From Tubulanus polymorphus (Eukaryota; Animalia; Nemertea): a DNA stretch of 64,000 nucleotides. Location of the stretch: contig NC_134030.1 in assembly GCF_964204645.1 (NCBI RefSeq), forward strand, positions 18,498,210 through 18,562,209, in the 5' to 3' direction. The notes under the pieces were generated by a model. The model ran no database searches. It was not told the DNA's origin and saw only the letters and a list, made by a program, of their open reading frames with translations. The translations under genes and the position numbers were made by a program. Below are positions 38,501 to 44,500 of this stretch, in pieces (within the stretch, counting starts at the first letter, position 1; each line of letters begins with the position of its first letter).

Positions 38501-41500
38501 GAGGTTTCGTAGACATCACCGAATTAGCGCGTTTTAGATTAATTAGTTTTTAATTAGGTATCTTGTTAATTACCGATGAGGCTTTACTGTCACTTGGTGT
38601 CGAACTATTCAAGACAATTTTCTAATTTCTGTTTTTGTAGATAGAGTTGTGCCAGACCTTTTTCTGGGTGGGGGAGGGGCTAATCTTTTGTATGGCGAAG
38701 TAAACAATCTGGTATTTAACAAATAAATGCCACATTAGGATCTCGCATAATTCCCAAGGTTGCTTAAAAGCCTGAGTCAACATCCTTAGTGAATGCAAGC
38801 ATCAGTCTGTAGCAGGGAACATCAGACATTTCATACCATATCAACGATTTTTGAGCAGCCAGTAGCTTCAGCGCTTCCCTTGACATATTTCCAATAAAAA
38901 CACCAGATTCTGATTCATTTTTAAAATATTAGACATTTTCTCTTTGAAAAACTGATAGTCCAAACTCGATATGTGTTCAGCACTTCGACTCAGACATCTT
39001 TTATTGAAAATGAACTACAAACACCAGATATTAGACATTTTATCAGCAAACTTTCAAAAACTGATCAATTCCACTTCACGTGTGTTCAGAACTTTGCCAG
39101 AGACATTCTAAATTGAAAAATTAACAACTAACACCAGACATTGGACACTTTATAAGCACACTTTCATCAACTGATCGTCAACAATTCATACAACAACAGC
39201 CAATGTCTGAATAGCCAATGAATAGCCGCTGCCCAATGGTTCTGTTCCAGGCTTCATTGATATTACAACATTGACTTAGACTGTTTGCTTTAGTTGCCAG
39301 ATTTCATTCAGAGTTACCATCAACATTTTGTTAATGATCGGGTTTGTTTTGAAGGCTAAACTTGAATGATCGCGAAGAATGGACGAAATGAATAACAACT
39401 GACAAGGCAGGGGGGGGGGGCGGTAGGGGTGCAATGAGGCAATATATGATTGCATACGATATAATTCAATTCAGACATTTCATTTTGATTTCATTTCATT
39501 TTACAGTATACAAATATCGTTCAATGATATAATATAGTGGTAATACAGCAGTGAATAGTGTAACAATTCAGTTTCATTTCAATTTCGCCCAGATTTATCT
39601 GAATTATGTAAAATCTAATTTATGAGTAATAATAGCCAACATGGTTCCGGGGGTTAAACGTACTGAATATTTCATCCGCATTAAATGAAAATCCAGATTG
39701 TAAAAATAATCCGAAATAAGCGAGTTCTACTGCATCTATGAACGAACCCTTCGTTTGAAGATAATGTACTTATTCAGAAGAATAGTTTTCAGCCCTGCGC
39801 CCCGAAAAGAAAGAATTAATATATATTTACAAAGTGGATGCTAAAAATAGGACCATGAAAAATGCGTTAGCTTAGAAATACTTATCATCAGATAAAAAAA
39901 CTCCGATTTTTTGTATCCTGTGCTCGAAAAAATTGTATAATTTCTGTAGCAATAAATTAAATCTGAATCCTAAATCAAGAAATTGCTTTGAAAATAGTTG
40001 GAATTTTTTTTTGAACCATTACAAAGTTTTTAGCATAGGTTTTTAACATTTACAAAACATGCGCAAATTCGATCTATTCAATTCAACAAAAATACTCGAT
40101 ATTCTGAGAGGAACATTTTTTGGTGAATTGAAAAAACCCCAACCAAATATCTTTATCGGTCATTCAGACGTTTATTACGAGTGGATGTAAAACATTGAAA
40201 ACTCCCGAAAAATATCCAGATACTAGATATTTAACTTGCCCGGGCGACCGAGGTACGCATCACACATTTCCGGGTGATTAAACTCGTTTCGGGGCTGAAC
40301 CGTAATTAAAATCGCATTAACGAGTCGGGCTAATTAGCGGGTTTTGTATTAGTGTTAGTTATCGGTGCAAATTGGATTTGTTTGACCAGAGAGTAGTACG
40401 GGTTAAAAACCACACCTCTGAATGCCATAAACCACTAATTCCCACTGCCCCTTAATAACCCCCCTCACTTGCCAGGTGTGGTGTCACCTTCGTCCCTACA
40501 TAGCAGTCGCGTATCTCGGAATTTAGAATAGGGGGCCTAAAACTTCCTAGGCCTAGTTGTATATGAACAGCTAGCGTCATAGGCACAGAAACCTTCCCCA
40601 ATAATATTTGAAAAGAGGGTAATTTTCTGGGCCCAGTTCCACAGTTAAAGTTAAAATCAGTTTATTTTCAACATTTTCAATTCCCCGAGTCCCGGGCATC
40701 ACATTTTGACATCTACATGAAACCGACTGCATAGGTGGCCAGATTTGCTGGTTTTAATCATTTATCCACAATTGTTCCACACGTGTATCGTATCTTTTCA
40801 AAGTTCCTCGCTACGCGCGCAATAAATCACATTAATTTATTTGCTTATCGCAAATATTTCATTTAGTGTGGGAAATCGCTAAGTGAATTGATAAATTCGA
40901 TTGATAAAGTTTCTCGGGTATAAATTGAATATCGAAACAACCACCACTGATAAAACGAGAATTCAACATTGAAATGTACAGTTCTTTAACAGTGTTTCTT
41001 CTAGCTACCGGTCTGGTGAGTATGAGACACAGTTCCGCAGTTGGGCAGGTTTAATTTAAATGCGGAGCAAGTTCAGCTATGCGTGATCCATTTGACCGTG
41101 GATCCCGTTCCGCAGTTGGGCAGGTTTAATTTGACTCTGGACCCAGTTCGACAGTTGGGCAGGTTTAATTTGACTCTGGACCCAGTTCGACAGTTGGGCA
41201 GGTTTAATTTGACTCTGGACCCAGTTTGACAGTTGGGCAGGTTTAATTTGACTCTGGACCCAGTTCGACAGTTGGGCAGGTTTAATTTGACTCTGGACTC
41301 AGTTCGACAGTTTGGCAGGTTTAATTTGACTCTGGACCCAGTTCGCCAGTTGGGCAGGTTTAATTTGACTCTGGACCCAGTTCGACAGTTGGGCAGGTTT
41401 AATTTGACTCTGGACTCAGTTCGACAGTTCGGCAGGTTTAATTTGACTCTGGACCCAGTTCGACAGTTGTGCAAGTTTTATTTGACTATTGACCCAGTTG

Positions 41501-44500
41501 CGCAACACTTTGGTTTAATTTCATGATTGCTTTATAGGTCCTCTCAGCCGGGGCAGCTGTTGACTTGTGTAAGGTAAGCAAATCGAAATTCAAATCAACA
41601 AATTCCGATTCAAACTTTTTAAATCTCATTTCTTTCCATTTATTTCACTATTTTCACGGGAATGATAGGACAAGGTTTGCGGTCGCCTACACGAATGTAG
41701 GGTTGTAACCAGTCCAGACATGTGTATATCGTCGCCTTGTAATCAGGTTCAGGTGGCTAGATGCGTATATGGTAAGAAATATAACTTTCATTTTTATTTT
41801 CCTCAAAAATTTCAAATTTGCCTATGGCCCTGGTCTTACAATTTTGATCAATGATCAGGGGCCAGTTGCACAGTCACGGCTTAGACTTAAGACCAGTCTA
41901 AGACCAACTTAGTTCTATAGCTAATCTAACAACTTAAGACCAGTCTTAAGATTTAAGTCCACTTTCGGCCTTAAGTCACGACTGTGCAGCTGGGCCCAGG
42001 GGCTGGTTCCATAACCTTAAGACTTGTCTTAAGTTGTTAGATTGGCTATAGAACTAAGCTTGTCTTAGACCGGTCTTAAGTCTAAGCCCTGACTATGGAA
42101 CTGGCCCCTGGGGCCAGTCTAAGCTCATTTAATTTATGACTTGTAATTGAAAAAAAAACCAACAGTGGAACTGGAATCAGGGGCCGGTTGCATAGTCATG
42201 GCTTAGACTTAAGACCAGTCTAAGACCAACTAAGTTCTATAGCCAATCTAACAACTTAAGACCAGTCTTAAGATTTAAGACCACTTTTTGACTTAAGTCA
42301 TGACTGTGCAACTGGCCCCTGAGGTTTAGTTGATGTTTCATGTTTTACTGTATTTCAGTTGGTACTGCTGGTAGATGTCCGTTCAGAGACGACTCATACG
42401 GCCCGTGTAAGGATTACTGCGCTAACGACCTCTCCTGCCCGTCTGGATTAAAATGCTGCCCGATCGGTTGTAGCAAACAATGCGTCATGCCAAAATTATA
42501 AGATATTTTTATGAAAGAGAAATGAAAATTTACACAAAAAAATATTAGTTGTGTGTTTTAGATTTAGTCGAGTACCGGAGGCTATTGAAAATAAGCGGTT
42601 ACAAATATGCGAACGGTCTTCGCTGACGAACTGGGGCCAAAGTTTTCAAGACTCAACTGGGTAATGACTTCATGCCCTTTCAGTGCTGACTGTTATTCTA
42701 AAATGCTGTATACAGAGATGCTAGGGCCAAAGTACCAAAATTCCGGAATTTAGAACGGGCGTTTTTGCATCGCCGGAGATGCAGTGTCACGATCGGCATC
42801 TTTCATCTGAAAATACGACGGCAAGCATTCGTTGTGCTTCACATCCCTCGCTGCCTTCTTATGCCGCGCCTTTTTCCCGCCACTACCGTATTTGACCTGG
42901 TCTTTACAAACGACGCAGTAAAGCAGTATACCGCTGTCAATTGCCTTTATATCGGCCGACTCCCGACTGACAATCTTTCCGTGCGTGCTCATTTTGCAGA
43001 CCGTCCCGCAAAAAGAAAGTTACAAAGCTGCGTGCCTCAGGACATAGCACGCGCGTGGTAATAATTAAGATGATATTTATTAAATATTATCTTGATTATT
43101 ACCACGTGCATCTTCACATTGTTGGCCGTCAGCGGGACGATGTATAACGGCGCGTAAAGATAATTGACTTTTAATTGGAAATGGCGTCACAACAGTGGCG
43201 CTCCGCCTACGCACGCACGGATACAACAACAAGCACACATATATACATTGTATCAGAACGTCCTCGGAAACAGAGACCAAGATAAAATAACACAGAAGCG
43301 ACGACGAGTACAAACAAACGAACGCTTTTACGGTCCGTGCCATTACTGGTCGCCGCGAGGAATTCTCACCAAATTTCCGGAATTGACATCGGCGATCCTA
43401 AATTTCCGGAATTCCGGATATTTCCGGAAAACTAGCATCTCTGTGTATATAATTAGAACATTTTGAAAATTGAAAATGCATACCACTATAGCGTGTCTAC
43501 ACCCCAGTGCGGTGTATAACAAGCATACCACTACAGCGTGTCTACACCCCAGTGCGGTGTATAACATACATACCACTATAGCGTGTCTACACCCAAGTGC
43601 GGTGTATAACATACAGTAGCCGCTAATTGTTATTTATATCGATACACCCTGATGCGGCGTACTGGCAAAGTAACACACCGCACTGTAGCGTAGACGAGCT
43701 GAAAGGGTTAATTATGAGGGTCGTACGGAAGCGTCGCAAAGTAAATACGTACCTTGGCTTTCTTCGCTAGCAACATTCGAATGATATCGATGCGGCCCGT
43801 GGCGGCCGCGTGACTCAAAGCGGTGGCGCCGTCGTCGGCGGTCGCGTCGACCAGGGCGTTGAACTCGAGTAACAACGCGACCATATCGGCGAAACCTTCC
43901 CGCGCGACGATACTCAATACGGGCGAGTTCGCGTAGAACTCTGTACGCGTGTTCGGGTTAGCACCAGATAACAACATCAAACGACTAACCTACAAAACGC
44001 AAAAACAAAACGTGATCATTGATAATTCGGAATGACCCTTGCAGGCCACTAGCGCGTTGGTTAAATGAACCTTACGCACTAAAATAAGCTACAAAACTTA
44101 TTTACTCAAAAAACTTTAAAAATAATGTATGACCCTCACAGGCCATCATACAGCTATCTGTATCTGGTTTTGCTGCATCCAATTAATGTTAATCTGTATA
44201 ATCTATATCAGTACAATATGTTGTTAAATCCAACAGCTGGGCGAGATTAATAAATGCTAGGCACTGGTCTGTGTATCGCGAAGGGCGGCTAGGAATCCGT
44301 CTGGAGTCGGTTGGCTGAGTGCGTAGTTGCCGAGGTGATCAATCTATAAAGCTTTTTTTATGTAGATAATTCTAAGAAGAACGACCCTAACAGGCTGCGA
44401 CGCGGCGTACTAGCAAAGTTCATCGCCGATTTATACACGGCACTCTAGTGTAGATGAGCTGTGACGGTTAGCTTTCAGGGTCGTACGGAAGCGCGTTGTC

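What the first reader, a model, noticed from the sequence alone, without database searches (positions are those of the whole stretch)
40870..42501. Hidden antisense gene nested in a TANC intron: secreted 6-Cys + WAP mini-protein with an immune-style promoter
Seen: four short exons, none in the ORF track, with canonical splice sites. They join in frame into a 107-aa protein with a hydrophobic N-terminus (likely cleaved near AGA|A), a C-x4-C-x5-C-x8-C-x4-C-x7-C module and a complete 8-Cys WAP domain (C-x9-C-x3-C-x5-C-x5-CC-x3-C-x3-C). Upstream lie TATAAA, GATA sites and GGGAAATCGC. The gene sits on the strand opposite TANC in the 7.7-kb intron 36044-43752. Known: WAP domains occur in antimicrobials and protease inhibitors (crustins, SLPI/elafin, waprins), and kappaB+GATA+TATA is typical of insect antimicrobial-peptide promoters. 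Inference: an easily unannotated defence, mucus or toxin effector with a crustin-like layout but a follistatin-N-like Cys module.
Basis: partly seen in the sequence, partly recalled or inferred. Interest (0 to 1): 0.85.

Follow-up and report, generated by a model that had tools for sequence, protein, structure and literature searches.

The report
Nested ribbon-worm WAP mini-protein gene
A ribbon-worm gene lying backwards inside an intron of a larger gene encodes a small cysteine-rich protein that is already in the public annotation; it is likely secreted and probably helps defend the worm's surfaces against microbes, but that role is untested.

Summary
The gene is real but not hidden. Four GT-AG exons join in frame to 107 aa, letter for letter RefSeq XP_074653754.1 (LOC141907898, Tubulanus polymorphus, a ribbon worm). 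It lies antisense in a TANC intron, 36044-43752. Exon 4 is a WAP domain (42 bits, cut-off 20.8). Its Cys spacing (9/3) is not the elafin/SLPI inhibitor type (6/8). The 6-Cys module has no Pfam match. It is predicted as a hairpin resembling follistatin-N/CREMP modules with an extra Cys-x4-Cys loop. It also occurs with WAP domains in a Tubulanus paralogue and in limpet, abalone and mud-snail proteins. It fails the crustin 12-Cys signature. The kappaB site has one mismatch; the kappaB/GATA cluster is unique among 73 TATAAA boxes in the window, but was defined post hoc. Expression and function are untested. Best reading: a secreted surface-defence WAP protein (about 45%); rivals are a mucus/tube matrix protein, a protease inhibitor and, least likely, a venom component. 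Nesting is ordinary. Interest is modest.

The parts
40870..40879 (+). Near-kappaB site (GGGAAATCGC), one mismatch to GGGRNWYYCC
   Evidence: consensus recalled; function untested
40889..40907 (+). Two GATA sites (TGATAA at 40889 and 40902) between the kappaB-like site and the TATA box; a third at 40948 lies downstream of TATA
40919..40924 (+). TATAAA box, 55 nt upstream of the ATG
   Evidence: region 39917-41030 is covered by one contig at single-copy depth (29.9) in run X1
40974..41015 (+). Exon 1: first 14 aa of the predicted signal peptide
   Evidence: hydropathy peak 2.59; matches XP_074653754.1
41090..41499 (.). 39-bp tandem array, 10.5 copies, in intron 1
41538..41573 (+). Exon 2: end of signal peptide (predicted cut after Ala20) and first Cys of the 6-Cys module
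   Evidence: cleavage site inferred from the -3/-1 rule (recalled), SignalP not available
41669..41771 (+). Exon 3: rest of the 6-Cys follistatin-N/CREMP-like module with its Cys45-x4-Cys50 loop
41854..42324 (.). Three copies (direct, inverted, direct) of a short high-copy MITE-like element in intron 3
42359..42501 (+). Exon 4: complete 8-Cys WAP domain and stop codon
   Evidence: Pfam PF00095 E 1.1e-10; VIA-align Z 5.4-7.0 to four WAP structures
36044..43752 (-). Host intron of the TANC gene, between two ankyrin-repeat exons

Best explanation
This is an intact, RefSeq-annotated ribbon-worm gene nested antisense in a TANC intron, encoding a likely secreted 9.4-kDa two-domain protein that most likely acts as an innate-defence effector of skin, mucus, gut or blood. 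Shown: four-exon structure, nesting, a WAP domain, and a 6-Cys module that sits with WAP domains in other lophotrochozoans. Inferred: it has its own TATA promoter and is transcribed independently of TANC; the signal peptide is cut after Ala20; seven disulfides form. The first module is predicted as a beta-hairpin (likely Cys25-36 and Cys30-58) carrying a disulfide-closed, variable Cys45-x4-Cys50 loop at its tip, which would serve as a binding surface. The WAP domain has a short C2-C3 loop like omwaprin and most crustins, so it would act on microbial surfaces (binding or weak killing) rather than as an elastase-type inhibitor. A Rel plus GATA cluster next to TATA may make it inducible. The nesting is probably incidental.
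For: Gene model identical to XP_074653754.1. WAP 42 bits against a cut-off of 20.8; best PDB sequence hit omwaprin-a, E 0.0014. C1-C2/C2-C3 spacing is 9/3, whereas the antiprotease WFDC domains of SLPI and elafin have 6/8 (PMC11408880 passage). WAP domains without the Met-bearing contact region tend to be antimicrobial (PMC9680087 section 6); omwaprin is antibacterial (PMC12115746 passage). Mature chain net +3, pI 8.2. Signal peptide, Cys-rich domain and one C-terminal WAP at 9.4 kDa is the crustin layout. Of 73 TATAAA sites in the window only this one has both a near-kappaB site and two GATA sites within 60 nt upstream; shuffled frequency 0.0002 in 20,000 shuffles. Another nemertean, Lineus ruber, has Dorsal and Relish orthologues and a Vibrio response (PMC9835746 passages). 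AF2 gives strands 34-40 and 54-60.
Against: No activity or induction was measured. Net +3 is weak for a membrane-active peptide, and the paralogue is acidic (net -2, pI 6.05). A 3-residue C2-C3 loop is simply the commonest state: 558 of 636 WAP matches in the stored proteins. The kappaB site matches none of three strict patterns; one-mismatch sites occur in 10.5% of 3190 tiles, and looser versions of the cluster occur at 3 places or 6 places in 64 kb. The window and thresholds were chosen after seeing the site. The abalone relatives are long repeat proteins with lustrin domains, which points to matrix roles. The disulfide pairing is inferred from the hairpin and from CREMP, not read from coordinates; model pLDDT is 70.3, pTM 0.40. 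A proteome study of another nemertean found no match to known antimicrobial peptides (PMC7460313 passage).
Confidence: 0.45

Rival explanations
1. Structural or adhesive component of secreted matrix (mucus, the tube that tubulanids build, egg coverings): a one-unit version of the module+WAP repeat proteins of gastropods.
For: Abalone relatives hold 6-7 modules with 5 WAP and 3 lustrin domains. The only non-WAP PDB hit of the A3 profile is the eggshell-membrane protein CREMP (E 0.037), whose Cx4Cx5Cx8C modules build fibres (PMC12723725 passages). Perlwapin and lustrin A are shell-matrix proteins (PMC6003135 passages). Tube building in Tubulanus is recalled, not from a call.
Against: A single-unit 87-aa protein with an even number of Cys (14) has no obvious means to polymerise. 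The CREMP hit is weak and its alignment was not seen. The promoter cluster fits regulated expression.
Confidence: 0.25
2. Extracellular serine-protease inhibitor that uses the Cys-x4-Cys loop of the first module (or the WAP) as a canonical binding loop against microbial or own proteases.
For: [quoted passage not shown] The fold ties with SLPI and elafin (Z 7.0, rmsd 2.2, 44 aligned; Z 6.9, rmsd 2.0, 43 aligned). In relatives the loop varies at its centre and often holds Arg-Ala (7 of 25 module copies listed), as reactive loops do (inference).
Against: The WAP lacks the 6/8 spacing and the Met. This protein's loop has Ser-Ser and the paralogue's Gly-Gly at the centre, which are poor P1 candidates. 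Pfam found no pacifastin, Kazal or antistasin family.
Confidence: 0.2
3. Proboscis venom or mucus toxin, by analogy with snake waprins.
For: Nemerteans use peptide toxins (abstracts); small, secreted and disulfide-rich; nearest solved relatives include venom waprins.
Against: No 'WAP', 'waprin' or 'whey' in the main text of two nemertean toxin surveys. Neither 'waprin' nor two motifs of this protein were found in the one supplementary file held, which was cut when stored. Relatives occur in grazing limpet and abalone. Single copy at this locus, no tandem expansion in the window.
Confidence: 0.06
4. Silent or decaying gene: the RefSeq model is an ab initio call on a remnant.
For: RefSeq XP models are predictions and the evidence behind this one was not seen. 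No AATAAA within 700 nt after the stop; only AATAAG at 42590 and ATTAAA at 43079.
Against: Open frame, all 14 Cys, canonical splice sites and a TATA box are intact, although the introns carry a tandem array and repeats. In run X1 the second haplotype differs at 1 coding position seen, against 4 in 82 nt of intron 3 and 15 in the contig over the 3' flank (one run, weak).
Confidence: 0.04

Closest known systems
Tubulanus polymorphus LOC141907898 (XP_074653754.1), 'uncharacterized protein'
   Same: Identical 107-aa sequence.
   Different: Nothing; the record carries no functional name.
Tubulanus paralogue LOC141910106 (XP_074656920.1) and Patella caerulea KAK6171453.1
   Same: Signal peptide + 6-Cys module + WAP; 37% identity over 100 columns to the paralogue, E 1e-16; all six module Cys align in the three.
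   Different: The paralogue is on another contig (16.7 Mb against 23.0 Mb), lacks WAP Cys2 and Cys7 and is acidic. The limpet protein has two WAP domains.
Type I crustins (carcinins)
   Same: Signal peptide, Cys-rich domain, one C-terminal WAP, size within 6-22 kDa.
   Different: Six, not four, Cys before the WAP; no 12-Cys signature; nemertean, not pancrustacean; activity unknown.
Waprins (omwaprin, nawaprin) and mouse SWAM1/2
   Same: 8-Cys WAP with a 3-residue C2-C3 loop; omwaprin is the best PDB sequence hit; Z 6.1, rmsd 1.8, 42 aligned.
   Different: Waprins are single-domain; this protein has an extra module; no venom link shown.
Elafin and SLPI (WFDC14, WFDC4)
   Same: Same fold.
   Different: Spacing 9/3 against 6/8; no Met-bearing protease-contact loop.
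CREMP / follistatin-N-like 2-disulfide modules
   Same: Cx4Cx5C start, predicted beta-hairpin; weak profile hit to CREMP 9pgb (E 0.037); 4-Cys and 6-Cys versions co-occur in P0140, P0141 and P0143.
   Different: An extra Cys-x4-Cys pair; no Pfam FOLN hit; the 6-Cys HMM gives the 4-Cys copies no significant score.
Gastropod module+WAP(+lustrin) repeat proteins (Haliotis XP_048258469.1 and XP_071113018.1; Batillaria KAK7500030.1)
   Same: Same 6-Cys module, in Haliotis directly followed by WAP.
   Different: 283-839 aa mosaics with lustrin repeats; the nemertean protein is a single unit.

Membership tests
WAP / four-disulfide-core (PF00095) | Eight Cys in WAP spacing; HMM above the gathering score | tested here: met
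   42 bits vs 20.8; 38.5 bits on the whole protein
WAP / four-disulfide-core (PF00095) | WAP fold | tested here: met
   the four rows with Z of 5 or more are all WAP structures, residues 64-107 (Z 5.4-7.0, rmsd 1.8-2.4, 42-44 aligned); Z is under 8 and Foldseek gave no match at E 0.001 or better
Crustins types I, II, V | 12-Cys signature: four-Cys domain + WAP | tested here: not met
   six Cys precede the WAP; definition in PMC9680087 section 7
Crustins | Secreted, 6-22 kDa, C-terminal WAP | tested here: met
   9.4 kDa mature; signal peptide by hydropathy only
Crustins | Pancrustacean origin | tested here: not met
   identical record is from Nemertea; range
Crustins / waprins | Antimicrobial activity | not testable with these tools
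   needs recombinant protein
Elafin/SLPI-type inhibitors | C1-x6-C2-x8-C3 spacing with a Met next to the scissile bond | tested here: not met
   9/3 spacing, no Met; criteria
Waprins | Single WAP domain expressed in a venom gland | tested here: not met
   two-domain protein; tissue not testable
Follistatin-N-like / CREMP module | Pfam FOLN HMM match | tested here: not met
   no FOLN row for 9 of 9 proteins scanned at E up to 1 or 10
Follistatin-N-like / CREMP module | Cx4Cx5C start and beta-hairpin with C1-C3, C2-C4 disulfides | tested here: inconclusive
   spacing and predicted hairpin present; CREMP E 0.037; Fstl1 only at Foldseek E 9.6; disulfides not read from the model; module not folded or searched alone as a profile
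Pacifastin | Pfam pacifastin match and its Cys spacing | tested here: not met
   no hit; spacing comparison from recall
Rel/GATA antimicrobial-peptide promoter | Consensus kappaB site | tested here: not met
   0 matches to three strict patterns in the 200 nt upstream of the ATG; one mismatch to GGGRNWYYCC (patterns recalled)
Rel/GATA antimicrobial-peptide promoter | kappaB-like and GATA sites clustered next to TATA | tested here: inconclusive
   1 of 73 TATAAA sites; shuffle frequency 0.0002; post hoc
Rel/GATA antimicrobial-peptide promoter | Induction by infection | not testable with these tools
   needs a challenge experiment
Nested (intronic) gene | Whole gene inside one intron of a host gene | tested here: met
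   3' end of the transcript not mapped

The most novel reading that the evidence does not exclude
The minimal member of an undescribed lophotrochozoan family of crustin analogues: an infection-inducible nemertean effector in which a follistatin-N/CREMP-type hairpin displays a hypervariable disulfide-closed loop that recognises a target, coupled to a waprin-type WAP domain. It would be a convergent answer to the crustin design and a first candidate antimicrobial protein for ribbon worms.
Probability: 0.2. Interest if true: 0.6.

Novelty: new variant of a known kind. Interest (0 to 1): 0.28.

Why it matters
Upstream immune signalling is described in nemerteans, but one proteome screen found no match to known antimicrobial peptides. 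A small WAP protein with a Rel/GATA-like promoter is a concrete candidate effector that is easy to test. The 6-Cys module has no Pfam family although it recurs in gastropod proteins, so it merits a model. The locus is not a surprise in itself: nearly 10% of Drosophila genes are in nested structures and 71% of nested genes are antisense (PMC3814207 passages), and WAP fusions are common.

Tried and rejected
No genome is held for this window, so paralogues and synteny could not be searched in DNA. Sequencing runs: three holders from one study, no RNA holder listed; the laid contigs run through the introns like DNA, and none of the 15 joints shown (92 not shown) is a splice junction of this gene. 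This says nothing about expression. Word-index protein searches found only the protein itself (1 of 1 candidate; 1 of 2); the alignment search gave 6 of 807 candidates. Exon 3 alone was too short for that search and had no PDB hit at E up to 10. ESM Atlas: exon 3 gave one low-score bacterial cluster (0.78); the full protein gave WAP clusters at 0.81-0.86, leads only. P0006 and P0023 (Gly-rich repeats from ENA contigs) lack the module and were dropped. The loose regex hit 22 of 137 proteins; most were degenerate WAPs and were dropped after inspection. Foldseek gave no match at E 0.001 or better for either model; VIA-align rows covered only residues 64-107, so the first module was barely tested. 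A module-only profile search against solved structures was not done, which leaves the follistatin-N/CREMP link open. A complex prediction with subtilisin was not run. No second copy of the module or of a WAP pattern in six frames of the window. Literature searches for this pairing: 'nemertea + WAP + toxin' 4 papers, none on topic by listing; 'WAP domain + follistatin + mollus' 0; 'WAP domain + lophotrochozoa' 4; 'WAP + FOLN + secreted' 1, where the terms occur in a figure legend and an agrin passage. Two papers asked for by id were not held, so the Drosophila Rel-GATA literature is recalled only. Earlier scan findings: none by sequence, by place or by the first word search.
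Full report
Observation. The four exons 40974-41015, 41538-41573, 41669-41771 and 42359-42501 have GT donors and AG acceptors and join to 324 nt, 107 aa and a stop. None of the exons lies in the 114 stop-to-stop ORFs of 80 aa or more. Exon 4 scores 42 bits on Pfam WAP, cut-off 20.8. A search with exon 4 returned one protein, P0003. It is letter for letter the spliced product and is RefSeq XP_074653754.1, 'uncharacterized protein LOC141907898' of Tubulanus polymorphus, a palaeonemertean ribbon worm. 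The model is therefore right and already annotated; the evidence behind the RefSeq model was not seen.

Host gene. Minus-strand exons match HTH_TANC1 and AAA_lid_TANC1 (49824-51083), ankyrin repeats (43708-43989, 34110-34472) and TPR (33406-33867). The intron runs from a GT at 43752 to an AG at 36044 in phase 0, and the ankyrin repeats across the junction are 33 residues apart, so the whole small gene is inside one TANC intron. This is ordinary: nearly 10% of Drosophila genes are in nested structures and 71.27% of nested genes are antisense (PMC3814207, passages). The abstract of PMC5174743 says nested genes typically arise by insertion of short young duplicates into long introns. That fits a paralogue on another contig, though the direction of copying was not tested.

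DNA support. Three runs of one study hold the stretch. In run X1, contigs over exons 2-4 have depth 29-32 and the promoter with exon 1 lies in one contig at depth 29.9, against thousands to hundreds of thousands for nearby repeats. The gene and promoter are single copy and not repeat-derived. A second haplotype differs at one coding position (41752, third base of the Gln54 codon), at 4 positions in 82 nt of intron 3 and at 15 in the contig over the 3' flank. X1 may be the source sample and contigs drop variants, so this is only a weak hint of constraint.

Relatives. phmmer over 1.84 billion representatives gave 135 proteins at E up to 0.001. Most match the WAP only. Of the 134 other than P0003, six carry the 6-Cys module by inspection and by a profile built from them (P0033, P0050, P0069, P0085, P0088, P0095). 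P0162, and not in the training set, also scores (E 3.3e-12). Named carriers: a Tubulanus paralogue (XP_074656920.1; 37% over 100 columns), Patella caerulea KAK6171453.1, Haliotis rufescens XP_048258469.1, H. cracherodii XP_071113018.1 and Batillaria attramentaria KAK7500030.1. All named carriers are lophotrochozoans, but the search was driven by the WAP, so the range of the module alone is unknown. The module directly precedes a WAP in the paralogue, the limpet, the abalones, P0085 and P0095. The abalone proteins are long mosaics with lustrin repeats. The paralogue has lost WAP Cys2 and Cys7.

The 6-Cys module. Pfam gave no family for it in 9 of 9 proteins. AlphaFold2 with 9 sequences (pLDDT 70.3, pTM 0.40; 63.3 with 3 sequences) predicts strands 34-40 and 54-60, which puts Cys45-x4-Cys50 in the connecting loop. 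The A3 profile hits, besides seven WAP-containing entries, the eggshell-membrane protein CREMP at E 0.037 (alignment not seen). [quoted passage not shown] Four-Cys and six-Cys versions occur together in P0140, P0141 and P0143, although the six-Cys profile does not score the four-Cys copies significantly. I infer a follistatin-N/CREMP-type hairpin with an added disulfide-closed loop. The loop centre varies (Arg-Ala in 7 of 25 copies listed, Ser-Ser here, Gly-Gly in the paralogue). Membership of FOLN is not shown.

The WAP domain. VIA-align over 48,161 chains gives SLPI Z 7.0 (rmsd 2.2, 44 aligned), elafin 6.9 (2.0, 43), omwaprin 6.1 (1.8, 42) and nawaprin 5.4 (2.4, 44); the first three are tied. 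By sequence the best PDB hit is omwaprin-a, E 0.0014. The C1-C2/C2-C3 spacing is 9/3; only the inhibitory domains of SLPI and elafin have 6/8 among human WFDC domains (PMC11408880, passage). A crustin review says that WAP proteins without the Met-bearing contact region tend to be antimicrobial (PMC9680087, sections 5-8 read, section 7 part 1 of 2). Against over-reading this: a 3-residue loop is found in 558 of 636 WAP matches in the stored proteins, the mature chain is only net +3 and the paralogue is net -2. The protein has the crustin layout but not the 12-Cys signature or the pancrustacean range, so it is not a crustin.

Promoter. TATAAA is at 40919, TGATAA at 40889, 40902 and 40948, and the kappaB-like 10-mer at 40870. 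The 10-mer matches none of three strict consensus patterns (recalled) and is one mismatch from GGGRNWYYCC; 63 such sites lie in the window and 10.5% of 3190 tiles hold one. Of 73 TATAAA sites, 3 have a near-kappaB site within 60 nt upstream, 2 have two GATA sites and only this one has both; in 20,000 shuffles of that 60-mer both occurred at frequency 0.0002. With 200-nt tiles the combination appears at 3 places with three GATA sites and 6 places with two. The thresholds were set after seeing the site, so I treat Rel regulation as plausible (about 35%), not shown. Lineus ruber has Dorsal and Relish orthologues (PMC9835746, passages). The Rel-GATA link in insect promoters is recalled.

Mechanism and rivals. 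Most likely (0.45) a secreted defence effector: own promoter, signal peptide cut after Ala20, a loop-displaying hairpin and a waprin-type WAP that act on microbial surfaces. Only the gene structure, the domain and the relatives are shown; secretion, disulfides, targets and induction are inferred. Rivals: mucus or tube matrix protein (0.25), favoured by the abalone mosaics, CREMP and shell-matrix WAP proteins (PMC6003135, passages); protease inhibitor (0.2); venom component (0.06), with no WAP mention in the main text of two nemertean toxin surveys (PMC9415933 and PMC7460313, term searches) and no hit in the one truncated supplement held (the table of T. polymorphus toxin transcripts was not held and could bear on this); silent gene (0.04).

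Novelty. The protein is in RefSeq and its WAP domain is recognised. Four searches of the held literature did not show a description of the module+WAP pairing (listings, plus passages of two hits); subscription journals are mostly missing.

Noticed in passing
P0050 (XP_074656920.1): The Tubulanus paralogue has lost WAP Cys2 and Cys7 together, giving a six-Cys WAP, and is acidic.
   Followed up: partly
window 41854-42324: Three copies (direct, inverted, direct) of a ~150-bp element with terminal inverted repeats; summed depth up to about 490,000 in run X1, so a very high-copy MITE-like family.
   Followed up: partly
window 41090-41499 and 21381-21863: The 39-bp tandem array in intron 1 translates like an array in an intron of the P450 gene, suggesting a dispersed minisatellite family.
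   Followed up: no
window 42675-43450: Middle-repetitive element right after the gene (depth about 1,500-8,800 in X1); its minus-strand ORF 42750-43019 has a CxxC...H motif like a transposase zinc finger (recalled); no significant Pfam hit.
   Followed up: partly
window 17649-19412 (+): 587-aa open frame with a Cys-rich zinc-finger-like patch and a basic C-terminus; no Pfam family above cut-off.
   Followed up: partly
window 77-28270: Neighbours: F5/8 type C exon (77-463, -) and a PAN-like ORF (4016-4339, +, weak), ATIC/PurH (8007-12397, -), cytochrome P450 (20604-28270, -).
   Followed up: partly
window 41752: Second allele in run X1 changes the third base of the Gln54 codon, just after the Cys45-Cys50 loop.
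   Followed up: partly
window 28881-29120 and 57141-57360: Two other places with TATAAA, three GATA sites and a near-kappaB site in 200 nt; the first lies just upstream of the P450 gene but on the other strand.
   Followed up: no
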